Shown here in pieces: positions 6,689 to 31,806 of a stretch of 37,856 nt of DNA. The first letter of the stretch is position 1; every line of letters starts with the position of its first letter. Under the pieces are notes generated by a model. That model was not told where the DNA came from. It saw nothing but the letters and a program-made list of their open reading frames with translations, and searched no databases. The DNA comes from Actinomycetota bacterium (GTDB lineage: Bacteria > Actinomycetota > Actinomycetes > Streptosporangiales > Streptosporangiaceae): the NCBI GenBank assembly GCA_003541285.1, contig DPMS01000234.1, positions 12,559-50,414 on the forward strand. Reading direction: 5' to 3'. Made by a program: the position numbers and the translations under genes.

Positions 6689-6802
6689 CCTCTCCATCGG
6701 GTGGTGCTTACCGCAGGTAGTGACCCTAACCTCGGGAGCGGAGCGACCCGTCGAGCCACGAGCTCACCTTGGTTGGATTAGGGACTCGCCTGGAGGACGC
6801 TC

Positions 6803-19900: not shown

Positions 19901-21488
19901 CGAGTGCTTCCAGGGCGGATGCTGCCTGGTAGAGCCGGTCGTCCAGCGAGCCCCGCTCGGTTACGCCGCGCCAGGCGAACGGCCGCCCCTGCGCGGCCGG
20001 CCGCCAGGCAGCCGCCAGGGCCGCCGCGGTGCGGCGGATTTCGCCGAACACCTCCGCTGTCAGGTGCACCGGGGCAAGACCCATGGCGGGAGCGGCAGGA
20101 ACCGCGTGCAGGCTGGCGATCATCCCGAGGACGTCATGCAGCGAGTACCCGAGCGGATCCCGTACACGGTTCACGGCGTTGGCGTACGCGGTGAGCTGCT
20201 CCCGGCGCCTGCGGGCCGCGTCCATGTCCATGGGCGGCACAGTTGCGGGCGCGGCAGGTACCGTGTCCAGCGCCTTGCCCAGCGACACGGCCACCTCTTT
20301 GCGCGTCGCGTTGTGCGAATGCAGGTCCAGCAGGTACCCGCCCAGCCCGGCCTCGGTCAGCCGGTCCCGCACCACGTCGAGCGCGGCAGCCTTCTCCGAT
20401 ACGAACAGCACGGTCTTGCCCGCGTGCAGCAGGGCACCGATCGTGTTCGCGATCGTCTGGCTCTTGCCCGTGCCCGGAGGGCCGTTCATTACGAACGAAC
20501 GGCCGCCGAGCGCGGCCGCGACGCAGGCCCGCTGCGAGGAGTCGGCGTCCAAGATCACCGGGGGGACCTCAGGGGCCGCGCGCGTGCCAGTCTGGTGCCC
20601 TGCGGTCTCCTCGAAGACGGGCCCGGACCAGGTCAGCCCGCGAGCAGCCAGGGCCCTCACCGCCGGGTGCACCGCGGCCAGGTCCTCATGATCGAGCAGG
20701 TCCCGGTACATCGCTCCCTTCATGAACGAGAAACACGAGAGCGCGGCGCTTTCGCTGACCTGCCAGCCATCCCTGGCAGCGACCGCTGCGCGGACCGCGT
20801 CCAGGAGCCCGCTCGGCGTGACCTCCGCCGGGTCGTCTACGCGGGGCAGCGCGAGCCCGTACTGGGACAGCTTCAGGCTGAGCGCCGGATTGACGGCCGG
20901 GTCATCGTCGGTCGGCTCCAGCATCGGCGGTTGCCGTGGCTCGGTGGTCACCAGCCGGACCGGCACCAGCAGCAACGGGCTCGTGTAGCGGGCCCGGTCC
21001 CGGTCGGTCCACGTCAAAGTACCGAACGCCAGGTACAGGACCGGCAAGCCCCGGTCCAGGTACTCCCGGTTCGAGTGCCGCATGAGCGCCCGGAGTGCGG
21101 CATCGAGGTCGTCCGGGTCCTTGCTGGTGTCGAGGATGTACGGAGCCGGTGGCGGGACCGCAGCCGCCGCACCGGCAGTCCGTTCACTTTCATCTGCTGG
21201 CTGGGTGTGTGCTTCCTCGCCCGCCCAGGGCTCGGTCGGCCAAGGCTTCAGGGACCGGAACGTGAAAGTGCCACCCGCCCTGAGGCGCGCGAGGATGTCA
21301 TCAGCAGAGGGGCGGGACACCCCCACCATGCCGGTCCTGCCCGGCCTGAAGTCGATGAGCCGGTTTGCCGCCGTGAGGTCGATGAGGCTGTCCCGCCAGC
21401 TGCTGATCGCAGAGCGGATGAGTGCCTCCCGGCCGGCTGCAGGCCGGCTGCTGTCTTTGTCCAGCACGCCGCGCCTCTCCATTCGCAT
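16923..21488 (-). CDS. DUF4011-type large SF1 (Upf1/DNA2-like) helicase, 1521 aa
   Basis: N-terminus SWRDSLIDLTAANRLIDFRP (DUF4011-like). Walker A GPPGTGKS at 20460-20483 (aa 336-343). DEASQ at 17790-17804 (aa 1229-1233). ILAGDQKQLPP, LRWHYRSRHEALI, and motif VI RRLNVAITRARYRIEIV 45 aa from the C-terminus. Confidence 0.85.
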   Translation of the reverse strand: MRMERRGVLDKDSSRPAAGREALIRSAISSWRDSLIDLTAANRLIDFRPGRTGMVGVSRPSADDILARLRAGGTFTFRSLKPWPTEPWAGEEAHTQPADESERTAGAAAAVPPPAPYILDTSKDPDDLDAALRALMRHSNREYLDRGLPVLYLAFGTLTWTDRDRARYTSPLLLVPVRLVTTEPRQPPMLEPTDDDPAVNPALSLKLSQYGLALPRVDDPAEVTPSGLLDAVRAAVAARDGWQVSESAALSCFSFMKGAMYRDLLDHEDLAAVHPAVRALAARGLTWSGPVFEETAGHQTGTRAAPEVPPVILDADSSQRACVAAALGGRSFVMNGPPGTGKSQTIANTIGALLHAGKTVLFVSEKAAALDVVRDRLTEAGLGGYLLDLHSHNATRKEVAVSLGKALDTVPAAPATVPPMDMDAARRRREQLTAYANAVNRVRDPLGYSLHDVLGMIASLHAVPAAPAMGLAPVHLTAEVFGEIRRTAAALAAAWRPAAQGRPFAWRGVTERGSLDDRLYQAASALEALAGVVRVNQTLADATGLTRPSHAEALAGLVDHLMTWPEALPDEWLTVDTLDAVDTAVAQLAAALTAIAARESQASQAAGVPWPAIPRQDALPVIDSKALAALTPACADVSGLTAGQIAGLARDFSAGAGLLEKRLVTLSGLASMLGLRAPATFSQANDVLVLARLAGEPDRPERAWLSVPGHQAASTAGRVLYDAHRALDRAEADASAYFTRDALRHDVGGLAQRFADDHHRLGKLSGEYRADKKTVAAFTREGIAVETAQEHLGLAAAWKHAAQALAAAEASHATLLGPHYIGRGTDFDRLGRALAHAATAVRCARGQDLSQAAGHISRDAVPKPVITATLTEIRQDLSAWQATLAPPPATAARPELLNGTIAEAIWWLRAHPGPLHAASEFTRAVSEVKGRQLTFGQARQMVALREAADSAHAQLAARDDVFQDLCGQLYAGVATDVAALRAALEWARRLRAMPGYEHVPLTPSHLKAAESAVPTDRLAKAADAWREGCAALLAAFSPHRRRELAAELDDYQGGDELFEVMFNDTSGRDEWHAYQAARASLAARGMDAAVDFCIAERVEPAQVPQVIERALLQEWAEYQLRTDPALAPLRAVGRDALVREYQRLDRALRAAAAGDIIRACNARRPRSDTGESAVIRREAEKQKKHMPVRELIEQARHVTQAIKPCFMMSPLAVSQYLPAGMHFDVVIFDEASQISPANAITCIYRGSALILAGDQKQLPPASCSGSGPRDDGEEWPAESEETSDLESVLDLAKGSGVFQNLTLRWHYRSRHEALIAFSSAAFYQGRLIPLPGGDSGGPDAGVELFHGEGTYRRGTSRDNPDEAARVAQRVIHHYDTRPALSLGVVTLSEAQASAIETALGKARQQRPDLDRFFTTHRLRGFFVKNAESAQGDERDVLILSIGYGPDENGKLTMNFGPLSRHGGWRRLNVAITRARYRIEIVSSIRAGDIPESVTSEGLRHLRRYLNYAARGPARAQHHLPG

Positions 21489-22218
21489 CGACTACATCAG
21501 GGCGCGGTACCTACGCAACCCGCCGCATCTGATCGTTCCGGCTGTCGCGGCGGGCAATGCCCTCGGCGCCGGCCCCCGAAGACTATCCGGTTGAAAAACC
21601 AGGTGTGGTGCCCATGCGCATTGCGGGCAAGGTTCGCAGGTCCGGGTTCCGGGTCGCCGGGTGTGCATGGGCGGCTGTGCGCCGGATGGCCACGCCCGGC
21701 CGCCTGCCCGGCCGCGGCCGTTGCCGAGGCGGCAACGCTCACGCTGGCGCCGGCAGTGGCCCCGTAGCTTACCCCGGCCGCCGCCGCCGATGAAGTCCTA
21801 TCCCCGCTTACGGCGGCCGTGACGCGGAGCCCGCAGGCGGCGGCCGCGCTGCATGTGCGGACCGCGGGTCGGCCGGTGCCACCCGGACACGGCTGGACTG
21901 CCTGACCGTGATTCGGTTGAAGGGTGGCTGAGCCCATTGTCCGTCCGGTGGCGAGACCGCGACCTGGGTACCAGCCATCACGGGTTCGGTGGCGGCGGCT
22001 TCGTACCGCTTGCCGAAGTGAGTTCACCCAGCGGCTGAGACATGGCAGGTTGCTGCCGGGGCAGGGGGCCGTCCGGTAAACGGTGCTTCGAGCCTGGTAT
22101 GACCTGAATTACGGATGTGTGTGCGCCTTATCACCAGCCCAAACTGCCACAGCAGCAGCGCTTTCAATCCCGGGGACGCCAGGCCGGGGCGGGCAGTGAA
22201 TGAATGTGAGAACCGAGG

Positions 22219-22248
22219 TTGCGCTGCCGATGCCGGTCATCATATTCT
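22219..22248 (+). promoter_or_regulatory. candidate promoter inside the AT-rich patch (about 22080-22400) upstream of the TIR cassette
   Basis: TTGCGC (22219-22224), an 18-nt spacer, then TATTCT (22243-22248). It lies in the most A/T-rich stretch of the 1.3-kb divergent intergenic region. This is motif-level evidence only. Confidence 0.2.
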
Positions 22249-22585
22249 GCTCTGGCGAATGCACGTCAAAACACAGTGAAAGGTGCTTAACGAACGCAGT
22301 GTGGAGGCGACTGCCTCGGACAGCCGATCACCCCGCGATCTGACGGCCCTGTGGTGATCGTTCCTTGCGGCGCTAGCAATCCCTATTTATTGGGTAGCTT
22401 TCAGGCGGGTTGTGGCCCCCAGCGCCGATGATCGGTCCCGGATGGCTGTCAGCCGGTCAACTCAGGCGCCAGTTCCCGTTACTGGGCAAGACCGCCAGAG
22501 GTCCGTGCCGTTGGCCGGCGTATGGGCCCGGAGCACGGAACCTTGCAGGCGCTGCGGGCGGGCGGACATAGGAGGGGACCGCGCG

Positions 22586-22807
22586 GTGATCAAGCAACCG
22601 CATGGCCGGGGGACTGGCCGCACAATCATCAGCTGGCACCTGTTCGCCAGGCCCGGCTTCCGCACTGGCAGTACCCGGTACTCGCGGAGCCCTTCCGCTG
22701 GCCCGCCAGCTGTTCTGCTCCACAGCACCTTTGTGCCTAGATTGGCTGAATCGTCTATGAGTGGTGCGATCCCTGACAAGCCACGCTGCTCAGGGAGGTG
22801 GATGTGA
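22586..22807 (+). CDS. candidate small ORF (73 codons from GTG 22586; frame open from 22412) translationally coupled to the TIR gene
   Basis: GGAGGGGA at 22571-22578 precedes GTG 22586. Stop TGA 22805-22807 overlaps GTG 22804 of the TIR gene (GTGA). The product is Arg/Ser/Gly/Pro-rich with scattered aromatics (SWHLFARPGFRTGSTRYSR). GC3 is about 71% by hand count, which does not discriminate it from the overlapping frame 22522..22740. Confidence 0.25.
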   Translation: MIKQPHGRGTGRTIISWHLFARPGFRTGSTRYSRSPSAGPPAVLLHSTFVPRLAESSMSGAIPDKPRCSGRWM

Positions 22808-24681
22808 ACATTTTCCTGAGCTACGCTGAGGAAGATAGCAGAATCGCCAGCAGGATTGCGGACCGGCTGACTGAGGCTGGTCACACGATCTTCAACTGGA
22901 TGGATCCGGTACAGAGGGGAGGGCGGTTCAGGCCACAGATCGAAGACCGTATAAGGCGTTCACATGCCTTCCTTGCCCTGCTGTCCCCGGATTTTCGCGA
23001 GTCGAACTGGTGTGGAATAGAACTCGATATGGCCATTCACCGCGAGCAAAGGCTCCAGGCCGACGATCCCAGCGCGGCCTTTATCAACGTGGCCGCCATC
23101 GCGAACGTTCCGCCCGCGGACGCCGGGGTTCTCGGCAGCTACGACTGGGTGGACATGTACAGCCCGGGGAAGGTCGAAGAGGGGCTTCGGCAGCTGGCCG
23201 GCCGGTTCGAGCGCGCCGAGGAACTGCTTTCTACCGCAGTGAACCCTGGCGGGCCCCGGCCGGCCAGCGACATCGAACCAGTCTTCCGTAACCGCCACGA
23301 CGAGCTGCAGAGGGTATTAAATGGGCTTGCCAATGCGGCGGGCCCGCACTTCTGGCTCGTGGTCGCACCACCCCAACTCGGTAGGACCTGGTTCCTCGAA
23401 CGCGTCAGCCACGATGACGCATTCTCCAAGCCTGTTCCCTGGGTCGTGAGGCTGCTTGACCTACGTTCGCAGCCAGCCGAGGTGCGTGCCGACCCAGTGG
23501 CGCTGCTCACGCTCCTGTTCGGAAATACCTCGCCGGCGGCTGCCGGGCAGAGCCCACGCCGCATCGCACAGGAGATCCTCAGGAGCGGACGGCCCAATCT
23601 GTGCCTGGTAGACAACGCCGAGTTGCTTACCGAAGAAACGGCCACTGCCCTGCGGGTGAGCCTGGGCCAGATCTACCGTTTCGTCCAGGACATGGGAAAG
23701 AGAGATCTTCGTCTCGCACTTATCGTGGCCAGCCGCCGGGACGATGGATGGCGAGGGGTTACTCCGCCGCCACGCCTTTCAGCCCTGCCGCTCACCGAAT
23801 TCACCCCCGATGTCGTGCAGCAAGCCCTGCGCGAGCTTTCCGATGCTATGGGAAACACCTTTTCCCCGGCGGAGTTCACAAGAAATGCCGCCCGCGTCCA
23901 TAGCGTGACCGAGGGGCTGCCCGCCCTGCTCGTGCGCTGCCTCCAGTGGGTACGGGAGGAGGAGTGGGTTGAGATGGACCGCCTGGAGACGCAGGACCTG
24001 TTCGAAGAACTCGCGGGCCCCTACGTCCGGGAGGAACTCCTCACGCCGGCGAGCCTGCTCCCCGATAGCCGGAAGGAAGCCGGCGGGCAACTGGCGGCAC
24101 TGGTGGACGCGTGCCGGGTGCTGACGCCATACCGCCTCTTCACCATGTCTCACCTGCGCCACCATCTGGATTCCGATGCTGGCTTCCGCGAAGCCCTGTC
24201 GGCTGCGGGCTGGGCACTGGCAGATCTGTCGGAGGCTATCAGCGACACCGCCCTGCTGCGCCGGCCGCTGAACGAACCATGGAAGGAGATGCACGCGGCG
24301 ATCCGCCGGCTGCTGTTCCGTCACTTCTACCGGTCACCGGAGCAACGGAGCCTGGCGCACGACGAGGCCCGCCAGTTCGTGGAGATCTGGGCAGACAAGC
24401 AAGTCGGCACCGAGCAGGTCGTTGGCTTGGTGGAGTGCCTGTGGCACGAAGCCAGCGCACTTTGCCTCCGCGACCCTGCCGAGATGAAGCCGAGGTTGTC
24501 CGAATCGGCAAAGAAACTGTCATCCGCACTCCGCGCCTCTGCCGCCTTTACGCTCGATGAACTCCGGGATTTTGCGGCGGAGCGGATGAAGAATGACGGC
24601 GAACTTGAGGAAGTTGTCGGCGATGGCGATGGCCTGCTCAGCCGGCTCGTCGAGATCGTACTGAATCCAGAGGATTCATGA
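22798..24681 (+). CDS. TIR-domain protein with degenerate STAND-like NTPase module and helical C-terminus
   Basis: N-terminus VNIFLSYAEEDSRIASRIADRL...AFLALLSPDFRESNWCGIELDMA (TIR; conserved Glu codon at 23020-23022). Then FRNRHDELQRVL...HFWLVVAPPQLGRTWFLERV (P-loop position reads GRT, 23365-23388) and CLVDNAELL (Walker-B-like). GGGAGG RBS; the start is GTG 22798 or 22804. Confidence 0.85.
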   Translation: MDVNIFLSYAEEDSRIASRIADRLTEAGHTIFNWMDPVQRGGRFRPQIEDRIRRSHAFLALLSPDFRESNWCGIELDMAIHREQRLQADDPSAAFINVAAIANVPPADAGVLGSYDWVDMYSPGKVEEGLRQLAGRFERAEELLSTAVNPGGPRPASDIEPVFRNRHDELQRVLNGLANAAGPHFWLVVAPPQLGRTWFLERVSHDDAFSKPVPWVVRLLDLRSQPAEVRADPVALLTLLFGNTSPAAAGQSPRRIAQEILRSGRPNLCLVDNAELLTEETATALRVSLGQIYRFVQDMGKRDLRLALIVASRRDDGWRGVTPPPRLSALPLTEFTPDVVQQALRELSDAMGNTFSPAEFTRNAARVHSVTEGLPALLVRCLQWVREEEWVEMDRLETQDLFEELAGPYVREELLTPASLLPDSRKEAGGQLAALVDACRVLTPYRLFTMSHLRHHLDSDAGFREALSAAGWALADLSEAISDTALLRRPLNEPWKEMHAAIRRLLFRHFYRSPEQRSLAHDEARQFVEIWADKQVGTEQVVGLVECLWHEASALCLRDPAEMKPRLSESAKKLSSALRASAAFTLDELRDFAAERMKNDGELEEVVGDGDGLLSRLVEIVLNPEDS

Positions 24682-27638
24682 ACATGGGCGAAGAGGACCT
24701 GTACCCAGGCTACATTCCGCGGGATGAGGAACGGCGGATCCTCGAGGAAGCCACGCGGGTACGGGAGGACCGCACGAGCCGCGCGGTGCTGCTGTATGGC
24801 CCGGGCGGTGTCGGTAAGACCTCGCTCGTGCGCAGGCTGGCGCAGGCCCGCGCGCACGATCCGGCGACGGTCTGGGTCCATCCGGTTGATATCGACGACT
24901 CGGAATACTGGCTGCTGTCCAACCTGGAGCGGCATGTCGCGAGTGGGCTGGACCCGGATCACCGTTTTTTCGGGCCATACCTGGAGCATCTTTCCCGGCT
25001 GCCGGTCTACACCAGGCCGCGCATTGGCTACGAGACGGTGGTCAGCCATCTCGCGCAGATCAAGAAGATCTTTGCCGACTGCTACCGGGATTTTACCGAG
25101 GGTAGTGGCAAGACGGTCGTCATAAGCATGGACACCGTGGAAGTCATCCGCGGCATGTACCTGCTGCAGACGCTGGCCCACTGGATGAAGGATCTTCCGG
25201 CCACTCTCTTCATCCTGGCTGGCCGTCCGCTCTGGGGGGCGGACGCAGAGGACCCGATCCGTCACGAACTGGAGGACCCGTACCAGCCCCTGCCCGTGAC
25301 CACCATCGAGCTTGGTGAGTTCACCCGGGAAGCCGCGCTTGACTATCTCACCAGGAGCGGAGTCGCTTCCGGCCTCTCCAAGGACGACAAGGAGAGAGAG
25401 AAGCTCATCCTGCTGACCCGGGGACACCCGCTCTGGCTGGCGTTCACGGTGGACTACCTCCAGAGCACCGGAATCCCGGAGGAGGCGGCCCAGTCGTTCG
25501 ACACCATCGCGGAGTGGGTGCCCTACCAGGGAGAACTGCCCCCGGCCGGGCGCAGCCTGCACGAGGCGTTCATGCGCCACCTAGTCGCGCCCTACAACGA
25601 GACCGACTTCTGGCACGAGGCACTCAAGCGGCTGGCCGTCGTGCGCGAGAGCGTCAACCAGGAGGTCTGGGAGCGGCTCATGGCTGACCGCCCGCTCCCG
25701 GATGGCGTACCGACCCTGGCCGCGGCCTGGGACGAGTTGCTCCGGATCCCCTGGATCCGGCCCCGGGCCAACCGCCGGTATGTGACGCTGCACGACGCGG
25801 TGGCCGAGGAACTCGCGCTGCGCATCGTTCCGTTGCATGACCAGGGCAAGCAGTGGCGGGACCAGCTATGGCAGCGCGCGCGAGCGATCTACACGGAACT
25901 GAGCGTTGCCAGCGAAACGGCGCTGAAGGAGGAACTGGCCAGGCTGGATGACGCGCTGCAATCCTTGCCGCCCAGGCTGGTGACCGACAGCGATCACGTC
26001 CCGGCTGAGGAGGAGAGCAGGCTCATCCGGGACGCGGCCCGGCTGGAGGCACAGAAACGTGAACTGTCCCAGTTCAAGGCCACCCGGCTCTGCTATGAGG
26101 TGCTGTGCGACTTCGGGAAAGGGTGCTCGCACTTCCTGACGTTGATGGACCAGGCCAAGACCGATCACGACATCCTGTTCCAGGATCTGCTCGCGGCCGA
26201 GATCCAGCGTTTCCTGCCCGGGGGAGTCCACGCGCATGCGTCCGGCGACGTCGTCGGCGAGGTCATCGATGAGTTCCGCGCATGGCTGGAATCCAGGCAG
26301 GGCAGGAATCTCCATCTTGAGATCGGCGTAAGCCTCGCTGACTACCTGATCAGGTCCGAGCAGCCGGGAACGGCGCTTAAGTTGCTCGACAACCTGCCGG
26401 AGGAGAGCGCCAGCACGATCCAGCGTTATCGCCTGTGCAATCTGCGCGGGAACGCATGCATGCGCATCCCGGGCCGGGTCAGGGAGGCCGAGGATCATTT
26501 CCAGCGATCGCTAGCCGAAGCGAGGCGCCTGCGGTCCGCGGACCGGCCGAGGCTGATCGCGAAGGCCCACAAGGAACTGGGCTTCTACTACCGCAACATG
26601 GGTAGCTGGCATGACGCCGACGACGCCTACGCGCGCGCGCGGGACGCGATCTCGGCGACTCTGCTCGCCGGGGGCTCAGCCGAGGACCGGGAGGAGATGG
26701 CCTCGATCCAGTCCAATTGGGCCTACGTCAAGGGACTGACCGGCGACTATCGTGCTGGCACGAACCTCGCGCAAAGTGCCATCACTGTCCGGCGCCGGCT
26801 GGGGAACCGGCAGGAGGAAGGCAACTCCTGGAGTGTCCTTGGCGAGGTGCTCCGTTATGAGCGCAGGTTCCAGAAGGCGTGGGAAGCCTACGCTGAGGCC
26901 GAGCGCATCTTCGAAGAGTTGCGGAACTGGGCGTGGCTGGGGCTTGTCTATCAGGAGCAGGCCATCTGCCTGTTCCAGTCGGCCCAGGAGCGGATCCAAC
27001 TCGTACCCGATCCCGTACCAGCGGCCAAGCGGCTCATCACGACGGCGCTGGACCTGTGCCGGGACCTGGCTGTCCGCGGCTATCCGTCCGCTCTCAACCG
27101 GGCCGGGCGCATCTACGGCGAGGACGTCGACGAGGGCCTGAAGTACCTGGCGACCGGTATCCGGGAGAGCCACAGGCTGTCCGATGGGTGGTTCTGGTTC
27201 GCGAGCCTGGTCGAGCATGCCGAACTGTGCTACCGGGCCTGGGTGAAGACGGGGCGGCCGGACTATCTCGATCAGATCGACGCCCACGAGGCTGAGATCG
27301 CTCAGGCCATGGGCGAGTACGAGTTCCCAGACCTGAAAGGCAGATGGGAACTCCTGCAGGGGCATCTCCTGGTTCGCCATTCACTGACGACGGGCGATGA
27401 GAGCGGCCTGGGCACTGCCCTGGATCACTACCGGAACGGTTTTGCCCTTATCGCACAGGAATACGTCGGGTCCTCTGGGGCGGCGACGGTCGCAGAAGAA
27501 TTCAGGGCTCTCGGGGAGCTCATTGCGCCGCTGTCACAACAGATCAAGGCAGAATGGCAGGCAGTTCTTCGCCGTGCCTGGAGCCGCGAGGCGTCGGCAG
27601 CGACCTTGCTCCTGGCCGGGCTGGAAGAGCTGTACTAG
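24678..27638 (+). CDS. STAND (NB-ARC/AAA_16-like) P-loop NTPase with C-terminal TPR array, no N-terminal effector domain
   Basis: ATG 24678 overlaps the TIR gene stop (ATGA). Walker A LLYGPGGVGKTSLVRRL (24798-24824), Walker-B-like VVISMDTVE, and TRGHPLWLAF (the GxP-like motif of STAND arms). TPR-like repeats run from about aa 560 (HKELGFYYRNMGSWHDADDAYARA; NSWSVLGEVLRYERRFQKAWEAYAEA; LGLVYQEQAICLF). Confidence 0.9.
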   Translation: MNMGEEDLYPGYIPRDEERRILEEATRVREDRTSRAVLLYGPGGVGKTSLVRRLAQARAHDPATVWVHPVDIDDSEYWLLSNLERHVASGLDPDHRFFGPYLEHLSRLPVYTRPRIGYETVVSHLAQIKKIFADCYRDFTEGSGKTVVISMDTVEVIRGMYLLQTLAHWMKDLPATLFILAGRPLWGADAEDPIRHELEDPYQPLPVTTIELGEFTREAALDYLTRSGVASGLSKDDKEREKLILLTRGHPLWLAFTVDYLQSTGIPEEAAQSFDTIAEWVPYQGELPPAGRSLHEAFMRHLVAPYNETDFWHEALKRLAVVRESVNQEVWERLMADRPLPDGVPTLAAAWDELLRIPWIRPRANRRYVTLHDAVAEELALRIVPLHDQGKQWRDQLWQRARAIYTELSVASETALKEELARLDDALQSLPPRLVTDSDHVPAEEESRLIRDAARLEAQKRELSQFKATRLCYEVLCDFGKGCSHFLTLMDQAKTDHDILFQDLLAAEIQRFLPGGVHAHASGDVVGEVIDEFRAWLESRQGRNLHLEIGVSLADYLIRSEQPGTALKLLDNLPEESASTIQRYRLCNLRGNACMRIPGRVREAEDHFQRSLAEARRLRSADRPRLIAKAHKELGFYYRNMGSWHDADDAYARARDAISATLLAGGSAEDREEMASIQSNWAYVKGLTGDYRAGTNLAQSAITVRRRLGNRQEEGNSWSVLGEVLRYERRFQKAWEAYAEAERIFEELRNWAWLGLVYQEQAICLFQSAQERIQLVPDPVPAAKRLITTALDLCRDLAVRGYPSALNRAGRIYGEDVDEGLKYLATGIRESHRLSDGWFWFASLVEHAELCYRAWVKTGRPDYLDQIDAHEAEIAQAMGEYEFPDLKGRWELLQGHLLVRHSLTTGDESGLGTALDHYRNGFALIAQEYVGSSGAATVAEEFRALGELIAPLSQQIKAEWQAVLRRAWSREASAATLLLAGLEELY

Positions 27639-27680
27639 CGAAATCCGTTCCACAGCTTCACCGTCAGAGAGGCGTGGTCC

Positions 27681-29231
27681 ATGACATCAGCACGGCGGGT
27701 GCGCCGGGCTATTGCGTTGTCCAGCTTCGACGTGCCTGGCGCGCCAGGACTCTTGATCCACAGCTGCGAAGACTGTGCCTGCCCCGTCAGCGACAGCCAG
27801 CAAGTGCGGGCACCGGGGGTCACCCCGCCGGTGGCCGCCACCGACACCCGACGCTGGGTCCGTGGCGCCGGCGTGGTGGAGATGCGGCTCGATGGACAAC
27901 ATCAACTGCTGTTCAACTCGGCGGGCCGGGGCGGCGTGGTCGTCGTCAACGAGCAGGCGCACCAGATCTTTCGCCGCTTTCAGCACCCGGCCACCCTGCA
28001 GGAGGTGCGGGCCCGCCTGCGGGAGGAGGAGCCGTCCGGGGGCGTGCACGCTGACCGGCCCGGTGATGACTTTGGAGAAGTCATCACCCGCCTCAGCCAA
28101 TTCGACGTTATCCATCCGGCCGGGCACCCTCCGCAGGGCTTGTTTCCCGGCGGCAAGGTCCTGACTGCCTGGCTGCATGTGACCAACGCCTGTAACCTGC
28201 GCTGCCCGTACTGCTACGTGAACAAGTCGGCGGAGGGCATGGACGAGTCCACCGGCCAGGCGGCCGTTGAGGCTGTGATCCGGTCAGCCATCGCTCACGG
28301 CTTCCCCGCTGTCAAGCTGAAATACGCCGGCGGAGAAGCGAGCCTCAATCACCGGCTGATGATGAAGATGCATGCCCACGCCCAGGAGCTGGCCGCCCAA
28401 TCCGGTCTGGACCTGCAAGCCACCCTGCTGAGCAACGGCGTAGCCCTCTCACCCGGGCTGATCGGGGCACTGAGGTCTGCGGGCATCAGGGTGATGATCT
28501 CACTGGACGGCCTGGGCAGCCAGCATGACATCCAGCGGCCGCTGGTGAACGGCAGGCCGTCCTTTCAGCTCGTCGAGCGCACGATCGGGCGGCTGATCGG
28601 GCAGGATCACGCTCCGCACCTGTCCATCACCATCACCAACCGCAACGTCGGCGGCTTGGCCGAAGTCGTCCGGTTCGCGCTGGACCGCGAACTCACGTTC
28701 AGCCTCAATTTCTTCCGCGACAACGACTGCGCGGCCAGCTTCCCCGACCTGCGTTACCAGGAACAGACCATGATCGCAGCCCTGCTCGAAGCCTTCTCCG
28801 TCATCGAGGAGTCACTGCCCCGCTGGAGTGTCCTGGGATCGGTCCTCGACCGAGGGCAACTGCTTGAACCGCGGCAGCACGCCTGCGGCGTCGGCCAGGA
28901 CTACGTGGTCATCGACCACCTGGGCAGGATCGCGAAGTGTCATATGGAGATCGAGCGGACGCTCGGCGATATTCTCACGCACGATCCGCTGCAACTGATC
29001 CGAACGGACACCGCAACAGTACAGAATCCGCCGGTCGAGGAAAAGGAAGGATGCCGCGACTGCACCTGGCGTTACTGGTGCTCAGGGGGGTGTGCGGTGG
29101 CCACTTTCAAAGCGACCGGCCGGTACGACATCAAATCACCGAACTGTCACATCTACAAGGCGATATACCCACAGGCGCTGAGACTCGAGGGCTTGCGGCT
29201 GCTCAGATATGCGGCACCCGCCCTGAGGTGA
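27681..29231 (+). CDS. radical SAM / SPASM-domain enzyme with N-terminal PqqD/RRE-like domain (peptide-maturase-like)
   Basis: CNLRCPYC (CxxxCxxC) at 28191-28214, KYAGGEASL, LLSNG, ISLDG. C-terminal SPASM Cys cluster CRDCTWRYWCSGGC at 29052-29093. Residues about 68-145 (LLFNSAGRGGVVVVNEQAHQIFRRFQHPATLQEVRARL...FGEVITRLSQFDVIH) fit a PqqD-like winged-helix pattern. An alternative start at ATG 27882 would remove a 67-aa extension containing SCEDCAC. Confidence 0.9.
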   Translation: MTSARRVRRAIALSSFDVPGAPGLLIHSCEDCACPVSDSQQVRAPGVTPPVAATDTRRWVRGAGVVEMRLDGQHQLLFNSAGRGGVVVVNEQAHQIFRRFQHPATLQEVRARLREEEPSGGVHADRPGDDFGEVITRLSQFDVIHPAGHPPQGLFPGGKVLTAWLHVTNACNLRCPYCYVNKSAEGMDESTGQAAVEAVIRSAIAHGFPAVKLKYAGGEASLNHRLMMKMHAHAQELAAQSGLDLQATLLSNGVALSPGLIGALRSAGIRVMISLDGLGSQHDIQRPLVNGRPSFQLVERTIGRLIGQDHAPHLSITITNRNVGGLAEVVRFALDRELTFSLNFFRDNDCAASFPDLRYQEQTMIAALLEAFSVIEESLPRWSVLGSVLDRGQLLEPRQHACGVGQDYVVIDHLGRIAKCHMEIERTLGDILTHDPLQLIRTDTATVQNPPVEEKEGCRDCTWRYWCSGGCAVATFKATGRYDIKSPNCHIYKAIYPQALRLEGLRLLRYAAPALR

Positions 29232-30130
29232 GCGCTTTGTCTGTCCCGGATGAAGTAATGAGCGAAACCGGTTTCCGCATCGATCCGCTGACAGGTGCCC
29301 ATGTGGTCGTCACTCCATGGCGACAGCATCGGCCTGTTCATCCGGATGGGATGTGCCCGTTCTGCCCGGGCGGGCTTGAGGCGCCCGGTGCGTATGATGT
29401 TCTGCACATTCCAAATCGTTGGCCTAGCCTGGCCAACGGGCGTCACGAAGTGATCCTGCACGGCCCCGACCACGATTCTTCCTTCCCAAGGCTAGGCGAG
29501 GACCGATCCGCCCGGGTCGTCGAGTTGTGGTCTGCGCGTACTTCGGTGCTTGGGTCGCGCGAAGACGTTAGCTATGTGTTCATTTTCGAGAACCGCGGCC
29601 GGGTCATCGGCACTACGATTGATCACCCTCACAGTCAGATCATGGCATTTAGCGAGATCCCTCCCATCCCTAAATCCGAGCTTTCGAAGAGTAATTGCGG
29701 CCTCTGCAAAGATATCGACGGCGAACTGATAGTCACACGCCAACCGGGATGGCAGGTGAGTGTGCCATGGGCTCCCTCATGGCCGTATGAAATGCTGATC
29801 TCCCCTTGCGCTCACGTTGCTGATCTGCCAACGGCGGGCCAGTCGCTGCGGACAGGGCTGGGAGTGATTCTCGTTGACTCGCTGACCCGCCTGGAGCGGC
29901 TCTTTGGGCGCGGCGCTCCCTACATGCTGTGGATACATCAGCGCCCAGCCGACGGGGGCGACTGGCCGGCCGCCCACCTCCATGTGCATCTAGCGCCCGT
30001 ATTGCGGGCGCCTGGTCTGCGGCGGCATCTTGCCGCCGCGGAGCTAGGTGCAGGCGTCTTCTTCGATCCGGTGGATCCCCGGGAGGCGGCAGCACAACTG
30101 AGATCCTCACCCGGAACGGCACAACCGTAA
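29228..30130 (+). CDS. GalT-like HIT-superfamily nucleotidyltransferase (galactose-1-phosphate uridylyltransferase / ADP-glucose phosphorylase family)
   Basis: GTG 29228 overlaps the rSAM stop (GTGA); ATG 29258 is an alternative start. CPFCPG at 29354-29365, NRWPS, FIFENRG, and the active-site motif DHPHSQIMAF (HPHSQ at 29624-29638). About 300 aa. No galK/galE/galM nearby. Confidence 0.85.
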   Translation: MSALSVPDEVMSETGFRIDPLTGAHVVVTPWRQHRPVHPDGMCPFCPGGLEAPGAYDVLHIPNRWPSLANGRHEVILHGPDHDSSFPRLGEDRSARVVELWSARTSVLGSREDVSYVFIFENRGRVIGTTIDHPHSQIMAFSEIPPIPKSELSKSNCGLCKDIDGELIVTRQPGWQVSVPWAPSWPYEMLISPCAHVADLPTAGQSLRTGLGVILVDSLTRLERLFGRGAPYMLWIHQRPADGGDWPAAHLHVHLAPVLRAPGLRRHLAAAELGAGVFFDPVDPREAAAQLRSSPGTAQP

Positions 30131-30294
30131 TGGCAGGGGGCGCCGGTGCTATCGCCATCGCCACCGTGATTGACGGCCAGGATGCGGCTGGCCGGCACCG
30201 GCACCGTCAGTCGTTCGGGGTCAAAGGGGACGTGCGCGGCGTGGCAGCGGATCGCCAGTTCCGGGCCGTAGGGACCATCACCATCAACCGGTGA
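30130..30294 (+). CDS. candidate small ORF (54 codons) coupled to the GalT-like gene; coding status ambiguous
   Basis: ATG 30130 overlaps the TAA stop of the GalT-like gene (TAATG). Product: MAGGAGAIAIATVIDGQDAAGRHRHRQSFGVKGDVRGVAADRQFRAVGTITINR. GC3 is about 80%. The opposite strand also reads as a plausible protein fragment (GPYGPELAIRCHAAHVPFDPERLTVPVPASRILAVNHGGDGD) with similar GC3. Confidence 0.2.
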   Translation: MAGGAGAIAIATVIDGQDAAGRHRHRQSFGVKGDVRGVAADRQFRAVGTITINR

Positions 30295-30296
30295 GT

Positions 30297-30908
30297 TCAG
30301 GCGGGAACGAGCGGTCGCTGGCTCCGGTTGCAGGACAGGACCACCGCCAGCGGCCAGACCGCCTGCGCCCCGCCCAGGAACCGCTCTGCCAGGCCGGCCA
30401 GCCCGCCCCCGGTGACCAGTTCCGCGCCGAACCACGCGAGGAGGCCGAGCAGCACCCCGGTGGCGCAGGCCGCAACAGCCGGCCGCAGCGCCCAGGGCAC
30501 CGAAGGCCCCCGCCGCTGGGCAGCAACCGGCCAGGCCGCCAGGGCTGCAAACCCGACCACCGCCCAGAACCTGTGCGACAGCGAAACGCCTCCCGCGGCC
30601 GGCAGTGGGCTCGCTGCGACCAGCATGCCAGCGACGCCACCCGCTATCAGGATCAGCCGCCCAGGTGCGCCGGCCGGCCTGAGCGCCAATCCCGATACGA
30701 CATCACAGGCACCCACTATCAAGAACGCGAGCGTCATCACCCACCGGTCTGCGGCGCCCACCGCCGCGAGGGCGCTGATGGTGCCAGTTACCGCATTGAA
30801 CGGGCGCGGCTGCAACCCGGCAGCAACTGTCCACCCGCCAACCAGCAGCACCGGGGCCGCGGCCGACGAGACCACGCCCCACCACGGAACTCCCCGCACG
30901 ACCACCAC
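30297..30908 (-). CDS. DUF998-family integral membrane protein
   Basis: 203 aa, about 6 hydrophobic segments, Ala/Gly/Leu/Val-rich with the W/R spacing typical of actinobacterial DUF998 proteins (WTVAAGLQP..FNAVTGTISALAA....RWVMTLAFLIVG). The exact start is uncertain. Confidence 0.65.
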   Translation of the reverse strand: MVVVRGVPWWGVVSSAAAPVLLVGGWTVAAGLQPRPFNAVTGTISALAAVGAADRWVMTLAFLIVGACDVVSGLALRPAGAPGRLILIAGGVAGMLVAASPLPAAGGVSLSHRFWAVVGFAALAAWPVAAQRRGPSVPWALRPAVAACATGVLLGLLAWFGAELVTGGGLAGLAERFLGGAQAVWPLAVVLSCNRSQRPLVPA

Positions 30909-30994
30909 CGTAGGCGACCACCGTGGCTGCGCCGGGCACCGGCGGTAGGGACAGCCCGCCTGCGGGGAAGTCGTCCGAGGCGGGTTTCTGTACC

Positions 30995-31806
30995 GTAGCC
31001 CGGTGGGACAACGGCCAGATCGTGGGTCGGCGCCGTCAACCTGTCAGGCTGCAGATCTTCCTGCCCGGATGGGTGCGCGCCCGCGGCCTGTCGGCCAGGA
31101 AACCATCACCCGCGACAACGTCACGATGCGGGTGGACGCGGTCGTCTACTACCGGGTCGTCGACCCTCTCAAGGCGATCGTCAACGTGCAGGACTACAAA
31201 TTCGCCAGCGCCCAGGTCGCCGCGACCTCGCTGCGGGCGGTCACCGGGCGCAGCGACATGGACCAGTTGCTGTCCGAGCGGGAGAAGGTCAACGCCGAAC
31301 TGAAGACCGTGATCGACCAGCCCACCGAACAGCCCTGGGGCATCCGGGTGGAGAGAGTCGAAGTCAGAGACGTCTCCCTGCCCGAGCCGATGAAACGCTC
31401 GATGTCCCGGCAGGCAGAAGCCGAACGCGAACGCCGGGCACGGATCATCGCCGCCGGCGGCGAATTCCGGGCCGCCAGTAAGCTCGCCCAGGCTGCGTCC
31501 GTCATGGCCGCCGACCCGGCCGCCCTGCAGTTGCGGTTGCTGCAAACGGTCGTCGAGGTTGCCGCCGAGAAAAACAGCCGCACCATCGTGATGCCCGTCC
31601 CGGTGGAAATGCTGCGCTTCCTCGACCGGGTGTCCCGCGCCGCTGACCGAGCCCAGCGTGAGGTGCGGCAGGACGTGGTGCAGGCCCGCCCGAGGGCGGG
31701 CCTGCACGGTCGTCGTCAGATAGCGCGGGCCTGCTCAGCCTGCGGGCCCTTGGGACCCTGGCTGGCGGTGTATTCCACCTTCTGGCCTTCGTCCAGGGTG
31801 CGGTAG
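30995..31806 (+). pseudogene. SPFH/Band-7 (stomatin/HflK-like) gene, 5'-truncated and frameshifted
   Basis: The core is intact from QETITRDNVTMRVDAVVYYRVVDPLKAIVNVQDY...VRDVSLPEPMKRSMSRQAEAERERRARII...AAL.LR.LQTVVEVAAEKNSTIVMPVP. The preceding segment (VARWDNGQIVGRRRQPVRLQIFLPGW, 30995-31081) is in another frame. No N-terminal TM helix remains. The ORF tail runs through the csp terminator hairpin and into csp on the other strand. Confidence 0.6.
31680..31705. terminator. GC-rich hairpin, probable terminator of the cold-shock gene (bidirectional position)
   Basis: GCAGGCCCGCC-CGAG-GGCGGGCCTGC: a perfect 11-bp stem with a 4-nt loop, 10 nt downstream of the csp stop (31716) on the minus strand. 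Confidence 0.6.

What the first reader, a model, noticed from the sequence alone, without database searches (positions are those of the whole stretch)
27639..29231. Radical SAM/SPASM enzyme with an RRE-like domain but no obvious precursor peptide; Cys-rich N-terminal extension
Seen in the sequence.
- Residues about 68-145 follow a PqqD/RRE-type beta-strand plus three-helix pattern. They are followed by the CxxxCxxC core and a C-terminal SPASM Cys cluster. This is the architecture of RiPP maturases (sactipeptide, ranthipeptide and cyclophane-forming enzymes).
- The annotated ORF adds 67 residues upstream of Met68 that contain SCEDCAC. GC3 in that stretch is high, so it may be translated.
- If the real start is ATG 27882 instead, about 240 nt between the STAND gene and the rSAM gene would be untranslated.
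- The STAND and rSAM ORFs are in the same frame, separated by one TAG and 14 codons (...LEELY*RNPFHSFTVREAWSM...).

Inference. The substrate may be a peptide encoded elsewhere in the cassette (candidates at 22412-22807 and 30130-30294). It could also be the enzyme's own extension, or one of the cassette proteins.
Basis: partly seen in the sequence, partly recalled or inferred. Interest (0 to 1): 0.65.

Follow-up and report, generated by a model that had tools for sequence, protein, structure and literature searches.

The report
Peptide-fused radical SAM immune-cassette enzyme
This gene encodes a radical-SAM peptide-modifying enzyme with what looks like its own substrate peptide fused to its front end; it always sits beside two immune-receptor-like ATPase genes (here one with a TIR domain), which points to an undescribed defence-type system built around peptide chemistry.

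Summary
ORF 27681-29231 encodes a 516-aa radical SAM/SPASM enzyme with an RRE-fold domain (aa 58-146) and a 57-aa N-terminal extension that is translated.

The extension is the main result.
- Its D-C-A-C motif (C29-E-D-C-A-C34 here) is present in 77/77 genome loci whose N-terminus is on the contig, across at least five phyla, and evolves under purifying selection.
- In three relatives the extension is a separate 30-59-aa ORF directly upstream of a tail-less enzyme. It therefore corresponds to a RiPP-type precursor peptide (leader strand plus Cys/Asp core) that is normally fused to its maturase.

The enzyme is gene 3 of a conserved cassette.
- Gene 1 is an NTPase with swappable effectors: TIR, DUF4062, CHAT, or EAD adaptors.
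- Gene 2 is an NB-ARC-like STAND-TPR, adjacent in 74/80 loci.
- One protein fuses all three parts.

No NCBIfam, PADLOC or literature description was found. The best reading is a self-modifying maturase whose tail is coupled to a STAND immune-type switch. The chemistry (probably a Cys thioether) and the defence role are inferred.

The parts
22798..24681 (+). Gene 1: TIR domain (aa 5-133) plus a STAND-like NTPase and a helical C-terminal region, 627 aa. This is the effector-carrying partner.
   Evidence: Pfam TIR_2 at 9e-20. The C-terminal 340 aa are homologous to the gene-1 protein of Cytophagia locus L027 (5e-18). The same position in other phyla carries AAA_16 NTPases with EAD9, EAD2, DUF4062, CHAT or TIR. 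Its stop overlaps the start of gene 2 by 4 bp.
24678..27638 (+). Gene 2: NB-ARC-like STAND NTPase plus TPR array, 986 aa. This is the presumed sensor or switch.
   Evidence: Pfam AAA_16 and TPR_12. Walker A GxGGxGKT, DTxE, GRP and an LHD (MHD-like) motif are invariant across phyla. A profile built from the cross-phylum alignment finds this gene next to the rSAM gene in 74 of 80 loci.
27667..27672 (+). Ribosome-binding site GAGAGG, 8 nt before ATG 27681
   Evidence: Read directly from the sequence.
27681..29231 (+). Gene 3: peptide-fused RRE / radical SAM / SPASM enzyme, 516 aa
27705..27725 (+). Leader-like segment R9-A-I-A-L-S-S15 (family pattern: basic or Pro residue, x, I/V, hydrophobic), predicted as a beta-strand
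   Evidence: Conserved in fused tails and in the free-standing peptides. AF2 predicts strand 12-14 with pLDDT about 75-78. The strand persists when aa 1-170 are modelled without the catalytic domain.
27765..27782 (+). Core motif C29-E-D-C-A-C34. D31, C32 and C34 are invariant across phyla in the tail alignment that includes the free-standing peptides (A5); position 33 is Ala except in one CDC variant.
   Evidence: Present in 77/77 loci. Only synonymous codon changes are seen. AF2 confidence is low here, which fits a flexible segment.
27789..27851 (+). Variable linker, aa 37-57
   Evidence: Poorly conserved even among homologues at 65-77% identity. This is where stop codons separate the peptide from the enzyme in the split relatives.
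27852..28118 (+). RRE (PqqD-like winged helix) domain, aa 58-146
   Evidence: AF2 pLDDT is 84-96 over most of the domain (64 in the 121-130 loop). Nine of the ten best-ranked Foldseek matches to the N-terminal model are chains of RiPP-pathway proteins that, from my own knowledge, carry RREs. The Pfam PqqD match is only 14.1 bits, E = 0.059, below the cutoff.
28191..28214 (+). Radical SAM cluster motif C171-x3-C175-x2-C178
   Evidence: Invariant. Lies within the Pfam PF04055 match at aa 167-305.
28728..29165 (+). SPASM auxiliary-cluster region: C350, C402-x12-G-x4-C420, C458-x2-C461-x5-C467-x3-C471, C489
   Evidence: TIGR04085 scores 46.7 bits, above the cutoff of 27, over aa 402-489. The cysteines are invariant or nearly so.

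Best explanation
The 516-aa protein is an RRE / radical SAM / SPASM peptide maturase that carries its own precursor peptide as an N-terminal fusion.

Layout.
- Residues about 9-15 form a leader-like strand and residues 29-34 (C-E-D-C-A-C) form the core.
- A variable linker of about 20 residues joins this peptide to the RRE (58-146).
- The catalytic barrel (about 160-345) and the two-cluster SPASM module (350-495) follow.

Proposed mechanism (inferred).
- The leader strand docks on the enzyme's own RRE.
- The linker lets the Cys/Asp core reach an active site, in cis or on a neighbouring protomer.
- The enzyme uses SAM-derived radical chemistry to modify the core. By analogy with its nearest characterised relatives (PapB, CteB/SCIFF maturase, QhpD), the most likely product is a thioether from a Cys sulfur to a carbon of the adjacent acidic residue.

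System context.
- The gene is the third member of a conserved, horizontally mobile cassette.
- Gene 2 is an NB-ARC-like STAND-TPR NTPase. Gene 1 is a second NTPase that carries or recruits a swappable effector, here a TIR domain.
- I infer that this is a conflict (immune-type) system. The state or accessibility of the enzyme-borne peptide would be coupled to the peptide-binding TPR array of the STAND protein, which switches the effector on.

Shown: the architecture, conservation of the tail, the equivalence of fused and split forms, and the gene linkage.
Inferred: the self-modification, the type of crosslink, the TPR read-out and the anti-phage role.
For: 1. The enzyme is intact and RiPP-like.
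- The rSAM and SPASM motifs are present and the curated domain cutoffs are passed.
- The whole-model Foldseek top hit is CteB (E = 2e-15, 454-471 aligned columns, so the N-terminal domain is included).
- Nine of the ten best-ranked matches to the isolated N-terminal model are RiPP-pathway proteins; TbiB1 gives TM 0.71.

2. The tail is under selection.
- DC[A/N]C is present in 77/77 loci with an intact N-terminus, from Actinomycetota, Chloroflexota, Nostoc, Cytophagia and KSB1, always 115-152 aa before CxxxCxxC.
- 121 of 147 representatives (clusters at 50% identity) have CAC or CxC there, and most of the rest have DCAP or CDAC variants.
- The codons change only synonymously.

3. The tail behaves like a substrate, not like a structural metal site.
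- AF2 confidence is low at the motif.
- The copy number varies: two DCACPDDG units in L084, two DCAC in L031, ETNCF/ETDCF/ETDCAC in L029, (CD)n-CAC runs, and repeated DCAPI units in P0284.

4. Fused and split forms are equivalent.
- Three tail-less enzymes have a separate ORF immediately upstream that ends in the motif: L081 (59 aa...NDCACEDLSFH*), L082 (30 aa...LLHCCDDCACEITDETK*; E = 3e-7 against the window's tail) and L083 (32 aa...ALYDCDCN*).
- All seven informative 'tail-less' cases keep the peptide, either fused or immediately upstream.

5. No other conserved small ORF exists around the cassette.

6. The leader-like strand 12-14 keeps pLDDT about 75 and strand geometry when only aa 1-170 are modelled, so its pairing partner lies in the N-terminal domain.

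7. Linkage to the NTPases.
- The STAND-TPR gene is adjacent in 74/80 loci, even where the gene order is inverted (Roseiflexus).
- Gene 1 swaps TIR, DUF4062, CHAT, EAD2 and EAD9; the Nostoc locus adds a Trypsin-EAD9 partner.
- P0193 fuses CHAT, NTPase, TPR, a GGGGS linker, DCAC, RRE and rSAM in one chain.

8. Defence context.
- The window neighbour at 16923-21488 matches PADLOC PDC-S37 (942 bits) and Hhe. The Nostoc locus lies near a DpdF gene (749 bits).
- The cassette sits in a lower-GC island.

9. Precedents.
- Kaur et al. 2020 describe rSAM-SPASM peptide processing coupled to TIR / AP-ATPase-TPR proteins (PMC7159879).
- The HXS system is an rSAM-matured anti-phage effector (PMC13128918).
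- PapB makes Cys-Asp/Glu thioethers (PMC9413430, PMC10739248). PapB is the top NCBIfam hit for three family members.
Against: - No biochemical datum exists. Modification of the tail, its chemistry and any phage phenotype are all inferred.
- I could not inspect model coordinates, so docking of the tail strand specifically in the leader-binding groove of the RRE is not shown.
- A covalently fused substrate implies at most one turnover per polypeptide, or trans action between protomers. That is unusual for an enzyme.
- The eight SPASM-region cysteines suggest two fully ligated auxiliary clusters. There may be no open iron site for a substrate Cys as in CteB.
- The three split examples lie on short metagenomic contigs, and all are in frame with the enzyme. 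They could be recently broken genes rather than functional two-gene systems, although two of them have 2-3 stop codons and all keep start codons for both ORFs.
- PapB similarity (122 bits) is far below its family cutoff (340), so the thioether guess rests on distant homology.
- In this window the Walker A lysine of gene 1 is Arg (LGRT, against GK[ST] in 24 homologues). This particular copy may be impaired.
- No model in PADLOC v2 recognises the system.
Confidence: 0.55

Rival explanations
1. The tail is not a substrate. It is a built-in pseudo-substrate or regulatory plug: its leader-like strand occupies the RRE and its cysteines sit at or ligate an auxiliary cluster. The real substrate is another protein, either a partner NTPase or a phage protein, which displaces the tail on infection.
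For: - The tail is tethered, conserved and predicted to contact the N-terminal domain.
- Fusion to the enzyme fits autoinhibition as well as it fits self-modification.
- The enzyme is always linked to sensor-type STAND proteins.
- No turnover problem arises.
Against: - The free-standing peptide genes in L081, L082 and L083 look like ordinary precursors, with the core at the C-terminus. They do not look like plugs.
- Motif copy number varies from one to more than four, which is typical of cores.
- No conserved Cys or other candidate motif was found in the STAND protein across phyla.
Confidence: 0.2
2. The cassette is a conventional RiPP natural-product cluster, and the precursor is a separate small gene in this window. 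The NTPases would be regulators.
For: - rSAM/SPASM enzymes with an RRE usually act on a separately encoded peptide.
- TPR/NTPase proteins such as HaaT accompany some RiPP clusters; the match here is weak (27.9 bits).
Against: - Neither ORF has any homologue in the 80 related loci, and no small ORF is conserved in the flanks.
- The codon-position GC of 22412-22807 is non-coding-like. ORF 30130-30294 has no Cys.
- The three cassette genes are close-packed (4-bp overlap and a 42-nt gap), leaving no room inside the operon.
- No protease or transporter is conserved with the cassette.
- Swapping of TIR, CHAT and DUF4062 effectors is not a feature of biosynthetic clusters.
Confidence: 0.03
3. The enzyme acts on a small molecule or nucleotide, in a viperin-like or cofactor-type reaction. 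It would make or destroy a signal for the STAND/TIR proteins, and the tail would be a metal-binding or redox-sensing appendage.
For: - Weak matches of the rSAM core to pVip models (43.9 bits).
- CxC and (CD)n runs resemble metal-binding peptides.
- Immune systems often use nucleotide chemistry.
Against: - The pVip match covers only the generic rSAM core (aa 165-282).
- An RRE and a full SPASM module are, from established knowledge, typical of peptide- and protein-modifying enzymes.
- The best structural and HMM relatives are all peptide or protein maturases.
- Single-Cys DCAP variants cannot build a metal cluster.
Confidence: 0.07
4. The enzyme-level reading is as in the best explanation, but the cassette is not anti-phage immunity. 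It would be a developmental, kin-recognition or programmed-death signalling module of multicellular bacteria (actinomycetes, Nostoc, Chloroflexi).
For: - The taxa are mostly filamentous or multicellular. Kaur et al. 2020 stress the same bias for related conflict systems (PMC7159879).
- STAND-TPR regulators such as AfsR exist; the match here is weak.
- The system was not found on IMG/VR viral contigs.
Against: - The effector repertoire (TIR, DUF4062 NADase, CHAT, trypsin via EAD) and the neighbouring defence-type genes are typical of immune or abortive-infection systems.
- The two roles are not exclusive.
Confidence: 0.15

Closest known systems
Fxs (FxSxx-COOH) peptide-processing system: FxsA peptide, FxsB rSAM/SPASM cyclophane maturase, HEXXH peptidase, TIR-like FxsC and the NB-ARC/TPR protein FxsT. 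Kaur et al. 2020 describe it alongside VMAP-ternary conflict systems.
   Same: - An rSAM/SPASM peptide maturase is genetically coupled to a TIR-bearing protein and an AP-ATPase/NB-ARC NTPase with TPRs.
- It is actinobacteria-rich (PMC7159879).
- The NTPase of the fused relative P0193 scores 273.6 bits on the FxSxx_TPR model, just under its cutoff of 300.
   Different: - The window enzyme scores 49.5 bits on FxsB (cutoff 370).
- There is no FxSxx-COOH peptide, no HEXXH peptidase and no vWA-MoxR module.
- The peptide is a Cys/Asp motif fused to the enzyme.
- Two NTPase genes are present, with effector swapping.
Thioether-forming SPASM maturases: PapB (ranthipeptides), CteB (SCIFF) and QhpD (quinohemoprotein amine dehydrogenase)
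   Same: - They are the best HMM relatives (PapB 122 bits, SCIFF maturase 92, QhpD 93) and the best structural relatives (CteB, E = 2e-15).
- They share the order N-terminal RRE, rSAM, SPASM.
- Their substrates are rich in Cys and acidic residues. PapB links Cys to Asp/Glu (PMC9413430).
   Different: - All scores are far below the family cutoffs, so this is a separate clade.
- The motif is DCAC or (CD)n, not CX3D.
- The substrate is normally fused to the enzyme.
- The genomic partners are STAND NTPases, not transporters, proteases or dehydrogenase subunits.
HXS anti-phage system (HxsA effector matured by the rSAM enzymes HxsB and HxsC)
   Same: It is a precedent for rSAM/SPASM protein maturation as an integral step of a phage-defence system (PMC13128918). 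HxsB is a distant HMM relative (70.8 bits).
   Different: - HXS matures a separate periplasmic effector with His-Xaa-Ser repeats.
- It has no STAND, TIR or TPR components and no fusion of substrate to enzyme.
STAND/NLR-type bacterial immune systems with modular effectors (Avs/AVAST, bNACHT, and the EAD-linked NTPase conflict systems of Kaur et al. 2020/2021)
   Same: - A STAND NTPase with a repeat sensor.
- Effector swapping among TIR, CHAT, DUF4062 and trypsin via EAD pairs.
- Defence-island neighbours.
   Different: - Two NTPase genes are present (a sensor-like one and an effector-carrying one) together with an obligatory rSAM enzyme.
- No PADLOC model matches the STAND gene.
- No radical SAM partner is mentioned in the Nature 2026 STAND survey or in the 2021 eLife paper on death-like domains.

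Membership tests
Radical SAM superfamily (PF04055) | CxxxCxxC cluster motif and a Pfam score above the gathering threshold | tested here: met
   C171/C175/C178 are invariant. PF04055 scores 47.5 bits against a cutoff of 29.5.
SPASM subgroup (TIGR04085) | C-terminal 7-Cys motif for two auxiliary 4Fe-4S clusters, with a score above the cutoff | tested here: met
   C402-x12-G-x4-C420, C458-x2-C-x5-C-x3-C471 and C489. TIGR04085 scores 46.7 bits against a cutoff of 27.
RRE / PqqD-like domain | Sequence match to PF05402 above the gathering score | tested here: not met
   14.1 bits, E = 0.059, against a cutoff of 23.4. Only 1 of 11 diverse members gave any hit. A profile search of PDB sequences found nothing relevant.
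RRE / PqqD-like domain | Fold: a three-stranded sheet plus three helices (winged helix) that matches solved RREs | tested here: met
   The AF2 N-terminal model has pLDDT 84-96 over most of the domain (64 in the 121-130 loop). Nine of the ten best-ranked Foldseek PDB matches are chains of TigE, TglHI, ThcOx, TbiB1 (TM 0.71), TruD and a 'heterocyclase' entry (4v1t/4v1v), with probability 0.85-1.00. That these proteins contain RREs is from my own knowledge.
PapB-family ranthipeptide maturase (NF047865) | Whole-protein score of at least 340 bits | tested here: not met
   122.2 bits for the window protein, 143.7 for P0250 and 128.4 for P0193.
PapB-family ranthipeptide maturase (NF047865) | Separate precursor with repeated Cys-X3-Asp/Glu motifs; Cys to Asp/Glu thioether product | not testable with these tools
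   The motif here is D-C-A-C or (CD)n, fused to the enzyme. The product chemistry cannot be determined in silico.
FxsB / Fxs system (TIGR04269, NF040588, NF040586) | FxsB score of at least 370 bits; FxSxx-COOH peptide; HEXXH peptidase; FxsC and FxsT partners | tested here: not met
   FxsB scores 49.5 bits. FxsC_Nterm scores 20 bits (cutoff 130) on the TIR protein. The window STAND protein has no FxSxx_TPR hit. No HEXXH or FxSxx gene is present in the cassette.
RiPP pathway (generic) | A genetically encoded peptide with leader and core, next to or fused with an RRE-bearing maturase | tested here: met
   The tail is fused in the window. Homologous free-standing ORFs of 30-59 aa sit directly upstream of tail-less enzymes in L081, L082 and L083.
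RiPP pathway (generic) | Demonstrated post-translational modification and release of a mature peptide | not testable with these tools
   No conserved protease or exporter accompanies the cassette. Testing this needs mass spectrometry.
Known anti-phage systems (PADLOC-DB v2) | System-specific HMM matches for the component genes | tested here: not met
   The rSAM gives only weak pVip core matches (43.9 bits). The TIR gives generic TIR matches of 34 bits or less. The STAND protein matches nothing.
NTPase-centred conflict systems with effector-associated domains (Kaur et al. 2020/2021) | STAND or other NTPase core, lineage-variable effectors, and EAD adaptor pairs that link standalone effectors | tested here: met
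   Gene 1 carries TIR, DUF4062, CHAT, EAD2 or EAD9. Nostoc locus L057 has a Trypsin-EAD9 gene next to an EAD9-NTPase. A bDLD1-CHAT gene is the neighbour in L085. This particular three-gene system with an rSAM is not described in that paper's text.

The most novel reading that the evidence does not exclude
The enzyme would be a self-modifying radical SAM 'fuse'. It installs a crosslink in its own N-terminal D-C-A-C peptide. That enzyme-borne RiPP-like peptide, in its modified, unmodified or displaced state, would be the ligand that the TPR array of the partner STAND NTPase reads in order to fire TIR, CHAT or NADase effectors. Immune signalling would then use ribosomal-peptide radical chemistry in place of a nucleotide second messenger, and the fused and split forms would record how a RiPP pathway was co-opted into an NLR-like switch.
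Probability: 0.3. Interest if true: 0.9.

Novelty: new variant of a known kind. Interest (0 to 1): 0.78.

Why it matters
If the reading is correct, three things follow.

1. It adds a large, phylogenetically broad family to the RiPP-type maturases. The family has at least 150 clusters at 50% identity with E < 1e-101. Its substrate is normally fused to the enzyme, which explains why precursor-based genome mining sees an 'orphan' rSAM. It also offers a ready-made, self-contained system for studying leader-RRE recognition.

2. It defines a three-gene STAND/TIR cassette that no defence catalogue I could query recognises. The cassette is present in actinomycetes, Nostoc, Chloroflexi and others. Its TIR, CHAT, DUF4062 and EAD effector swapping is the hallmark of immune systems.

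3. It would link radical peptide chemistry to NLR-like switching. That makes an open question directly testable, namely what ligands bacterial TPR-STANDs read. The test objects are a defined 6-residue motif and cultured hosts (Actinoplanes rectilineatus NRRL B-16090, Asanoa, Amycolatopsis and Nostoc strains).

Tried and rejected
- Alternative start at ATG 27882: rejected. Met68 is not conserved, and the upstream 67 aa are conserved with synonymous-only variation at the motif.
- Read-through or fusion of STAND and rSAM via the in-frame TAG: rejected. The frame relation varies among homologues.
tblastn found no counterpart next to any homologue, and flank clustering found no conserved small ORF.
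- Sequence-level proof of the RRE: weak. PqqD gives E = 0.059 and a PDB profile search gave only noise. The fold-level test was needed.
- Search for stand-alone tail-plus-RRE proteins with the N-terminal profile: it returned only 29 short, truncated or frameshifted fragments.
- Viral contigs (IMG/VR): no relative found.
- tRNA genes, flanking direct repeats, promoters and terminators around the island: nothing above chance.
- A conserved Cys or other peptide-like motif in the STAND protein as an alternative substrate: none found. Only NTPase motifs are invariant. The STAND C-terminus (…LLLARLEELY) is conserved only within actinobacteria.
- Literature: six full-text searches found no description of this family or cassette.


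Full report
WHAT IS THERE

The window is about 70% GC, which is actinobacterial in character. A lower-GC stretch (0.61-0.65) lies at about 22-30 kb. On the + strand it holds three close-packed genes.
- Gene 1, 22798-24681, 627 aa. It has a TIR_2 domain (9e-20).
- Gene 2, 24678-27638, 986 aa. It has AAA_16 and TPR_12 domains, and it overlaps gene 1 by 4 bp.
- Gene 3, 27681-29231, 516 aa. It follows after a 42-nt gap and has a GAGAGG ribosome-binding site 8 nt before the ATG.

The third protein has the following features.
- The radical SAM motif C171-x3-C175-x2-C178.
- A complete SPASM cysteine set.
- Scores above the curated cutoffs for PF04055 and TIGR04085.
- No family-specific NCBIfam model is reached. 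The best is PapB at 122 bits (cutoff 340), followed by nif11-type, DynA, QhpD, SCIFF and geopeptide maturases. FxsB scores 49.5 bits (cutoff 370).

CHECKING THE RRE

An AlphaFold2 model of the whole protein has pLDDT 70 and pTM 0.76. A second model of residues 1-170 alone has pLDDT 78.
- Both models give four strands (58-61, 65-69, 74-79, 86-90) followed by three helices (91-101, 106-116, 127-140). Confidence is 84-96 over most of this domain and drops to 64 in the 121-130 loop.
- The whole model matches CteB best (E = 2e-15, 454-471 aligned columns), then anSME, TigE, SkfB, ChlB and SuiB.
- The N-terminal model on its own matches TigE, TglHI, ThcOx, TbiB1 (TM 0.71 on the 88-residue lasso-peptide RRE), TruD, a heterocyclase entry (4v1t/4v1v) and MibB. 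From my own knowledge these are the classic RRE-containing RiPP proteins.
- At sequence level PqqD is only a sub-threshold hit (14.1 bits, E = 0.059).

THE N-TERMINAL EXTENSION IS REAL AND IS THE KEY FEATURE

Homologues at 65-77% identity cover 97-100% of the query. In an alignment of 20 of them, D17, C29, E30, D31, C34, V36 and W59 are invariant. Residues 37-57 are variable, and Met68 is not conserved.

A scan of one genome per species returned 80 loci. They come from Streptosporangiaceae and other Actinomycetota, Roseiflexus, Chloroflexus, Anaerolineales, Herpetosiphon, many Nostoc strains, a Cytophagia MAG and KSB1.
- Every one of the 77 loci whose N-terminus lies on the contig has D-C-[A/N]-C, 115-152 residues before CxxxCxxC.
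- Across phyla the whole tail has little else in common: C32-A33-C34 are invariant and D31 nearly so.
- A basic-or-Pro, x, I/V, hydrophobic segment lies near the N-terminus.
- Over 27 loci the six CEDCAC codons show TGC/TGT, GAA/GAG, GAC/GAT and GCC/GCT/GCG alternation with no amino-acid change.

A profile search of 1.84 billion cluster representatives gave 721 hits at E <= 1e-30, and the best 150 were all below 1e-101. Of the 147 that have a CxxxCxxC motif:
- 99 have CAC at that position;
- 22 have another CxC;
- 19 have other Cys variants, such as DCAP units and GQCDAC;
- 7 have no Cys.

The motif varies in copy number. Examples are (CD)n-CAC runs, two DCAC units in L031, two AE[QT]DCACPDDG units in L084, three ETxC units in Roseiflexus, and repeated DCAPI units in P0284. 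AlphaFold gives the motif low confidence. This behaviour fits a peptide core and does not fit a fixed metal site.

FUSED AND SPLIT FORMS ARE EQUIVALENT

I looked up nine apparently tail-less representatives.
- Three are clean splits, each with a separate ORF directly upstream of the tail-less enzyme.
  - L081 has a 59-aa ORF with its own AAGGAAGG site, ending ...GDNDCACEDLSFH*. Three stop codons lie before the enzyme's ATG.
  - L082 has a 30-aa ORF, MNPILLFAKKGLNLLHCCDDCACEITDETK*, whose TAA abuts the enzyme's ATG. It aligns to the window's tail at E = 3e-7.
  - L083 has a 32-aa ORF ending ...ALYDCDCN*, followed by two stops.
- A fourth (P0174) has a 69-aa gene in the same place, but no DNA is available.
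- Two were start-codon miscalls and are really fused (L084, L087).
- Two are frameshifted fused genes (L086, L088).
- One is cut by a contig end (L085).

So in 7 of 7 informative cases the DCxC peptide is present, fused or immediately upstream. The extension in the window is therefore homologous to a free-standing peptide of typical RiPP precursor layout, with the leader first and the core at the C-terminus. All three split ORFs are in frame with the enzyme. This suggests fission by stop codons in the linker, or fusion by their loss. It leaves open whether the split forms are functional.

NO OTHER PRECURSOR

Clustering of all ORFs of 20 aa or more in the flanks of 25 cassettes (24 related loci plus the window) found nothing conserved apart from alternative-frame artefacts inside the rSAM gene. 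ORF 22412-22807 has non-coding codon-position GC, and 30130-30294 lacks cysteine.

THE CASSETTE

- A profile of gene 2 finds it next to the rSAM gene in 74 of 80 loci. Five of the exceptions are cut by contig ends, and one Nostoc locus is degenerate.
- In Roseiflexus and Chloroflexus the pair gene 1 / gene 2 is on the opposite strand, converging on the rSAM gene. The linkage has therefore survived rearrangement.
- Gene 2 has Walker A, DTxE, GRP and LHD motifs, which makes it NB-ARC/AP-ATPase-like, plus TPRs.
- Gene 1 is a shorter AAA_16-type NTPase. Its extra domain changes with lineage: TIR in actinobacteria and in Anaerolineales L078; DUF4062 in Cytophagia (reported as a TIR-like NADase in bioRxiv 10.64898/2026.05.01.722283 and 10.64898/2026.09.04.749371); CHAT in KSB1 (L070) and in the unclassified MAG L043; EAD2 in Chloroheliaceae; EAD9 in Nostoc, with a Trypsin-EAD9 gene beside it; or none.
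- One representative, P0193 (1620 aa), is CHAT, NTPase, TPR, '...GGGGS', DCAC, RRE and rSAM/SPASM in a single chain. Its NTPase scores 273.6 bits on the FxSxx-system TPR protein model.
- The flanks are not conserved.
- In the window the divergent neighbour at 16923-21488 matches PADLOC PDC-S37 (942 bits) and Hhe. In Nostoc a DpdF gene lies nearby.
- No relative was found on viral contigs.

HOW IT MOST LIKELY WORKS

Shown:
- an intact RRE-rSAM-SPASM enzyme;
- an obligatory Cys/Asp peptide, fused to it or encoded just upstream;
- obligatory linkage to a STAND-TPR gene and an effector-bearing NTPase gene.

Inferred:
- The leader-like strand docks on the enzyme's own RRE. In the model it keeps strand geometry and pLDDT about 75 even without the catalytic domain.
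- The flexible linker delivers the core to an active site, in cis or in trans.
- The enzyme modifies the core. A Cys-to-acidic-residue thioether is the likeliest product. The reasons are that PapB, CteB and QhpD are the nearest characterised relatives and that Asp-Cys is the invariant unit.
- The TPR array of the STAND protein reads the peptide's state and switches on the effector, here a TIR whose W71-C-G-I-E75 motif suggests an active NADase (my inference from the sequence).

Kaur et al. 2020 proposed comparable logic for Fxs-type peptide processing coupled to TIR / AP-ATPase-TPR proteins (PMC7159879). The HXS system shows that rSAM-matured proteins can be defence components (PMC13128918).

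The main rival is that the tail is a pseudo-substrate plug and the true substrate is a partner or phage protein.

COMPARISON AND NOVELTY

The enzyme works like a thioether-type SPASM RiPP maturase, and the cassette works like an NLR-type conflict system. It fails the membership tests for PapB, FxsB/Fxs, pVip and every PADLOC system. Six literature searches found no description of it. I class it as a new variant of known kinds. If the self-modified tail proves to be the signal read by the STAND protein, it would have a claim to being a new mechanism.

CAVEATS

- Nothing here is biochemical.
- The split examples lie on short metagenomic contigs.
- I could not view model coordinates.
- The window's gene 1 has Arg in place of the Walker A lysine (LGRT at 23380-23388, against GK[ST] in 24 homologues). 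This copy may not be fully functional.

Noticed in passing
window 23383-23385 (gene 1, residue 196): The Walker A lysine of the TIR-NTPase is Arg here (APPQLGRT). All 24 actinobacterial homologues have GK[ST]. This may be an inactivating or regulatory substitution in this copy.
   Followed up: partly
window 16923-21488 (- strand): A 1521-aa DUF4011 plus AAA_11/AAA_12 helicase, divergent from the cassette. It matches the PADLOC defence candidate PDC-S37 (942 bits) and Hhe (410 bits), so the cassette sits beside another defence-type gene.
   Followed up: partly
window 29228/29258-30130 (+ strand): A divergent GalT-like HIT-family nucleotidyltransferase (127 bits against a cutoff of 448). It starts at the rSAM stop codon, inside the low-GC island, with GC3 of only 0.64. 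It is not found next to any homologous cassette, and its role is unknown.
   Followed up: partly
window 22000-30000: A lower-GC island (0.61-0.65, against about 0.70 in the flanks) covers the cassette and the GalT-like gene, which suggests horizontal acquisition. No tRNA gene or flanking repeat was found.
   Followed up: yes
window 2077-4425 (+ strand): A RecD2-like helicase (OB, HHH, AAA_19/30, SH3). It matches PADLOC typeIV_RecD (231 bits) and PDC-S68 models.
   Followed up: no
window 30297-30908 (- strand) versus 30291-30998 (+ strand): Two long overlapping ORFs on opposite strands. The minus-strand ORF has the more coding-like GC3 (0.82) and looks hydrophobic, so the + strand 235-aa ORF is probably not a gene. 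Neither has a family match.
   Followed up: partly
P0193 (1620 aa, metagenomic representative): A single polypeptide containing a CHAT protease, a STAND NTPase, TPRs, a Gly linker, the DCAC motif, an RRE and rSAM/SPASM. Here the 'tail' is internal, directly after the TPR array.
   Followed up: partly
L081:443-622, L082:82-174, L083:1558-1656: All three free-standing DCxC peptide ORFs are in the same reading frame as the downstream enzyme gene and are separated from it by 1-3 stop codons. This suggests fission or fusion events within the linker.
   Followed up: partly
L006, L015, L049 (gene 2) and L040: In three loci the STAND-TPR gene is split into two ORFs. In Nostoc locus L040 it is deleted, along with most of gene 1, while the rSAM gene remains. 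This looks like decay of the cassette in some genomes.
   Followed up: no
L057:4496-5389 and 5407-7062 (Nostoc linckia NIES-25 plasmid1): A Trypsin-EAD9 protein is encoded directly upstream of the EAD9-NTPase (gene 1). This is an adaptor-paired effector arrangement in place of the fused TIR. A DpdF-like helicase lies about 3 kb downstream of the rSAM gene.
   Followed up: partly
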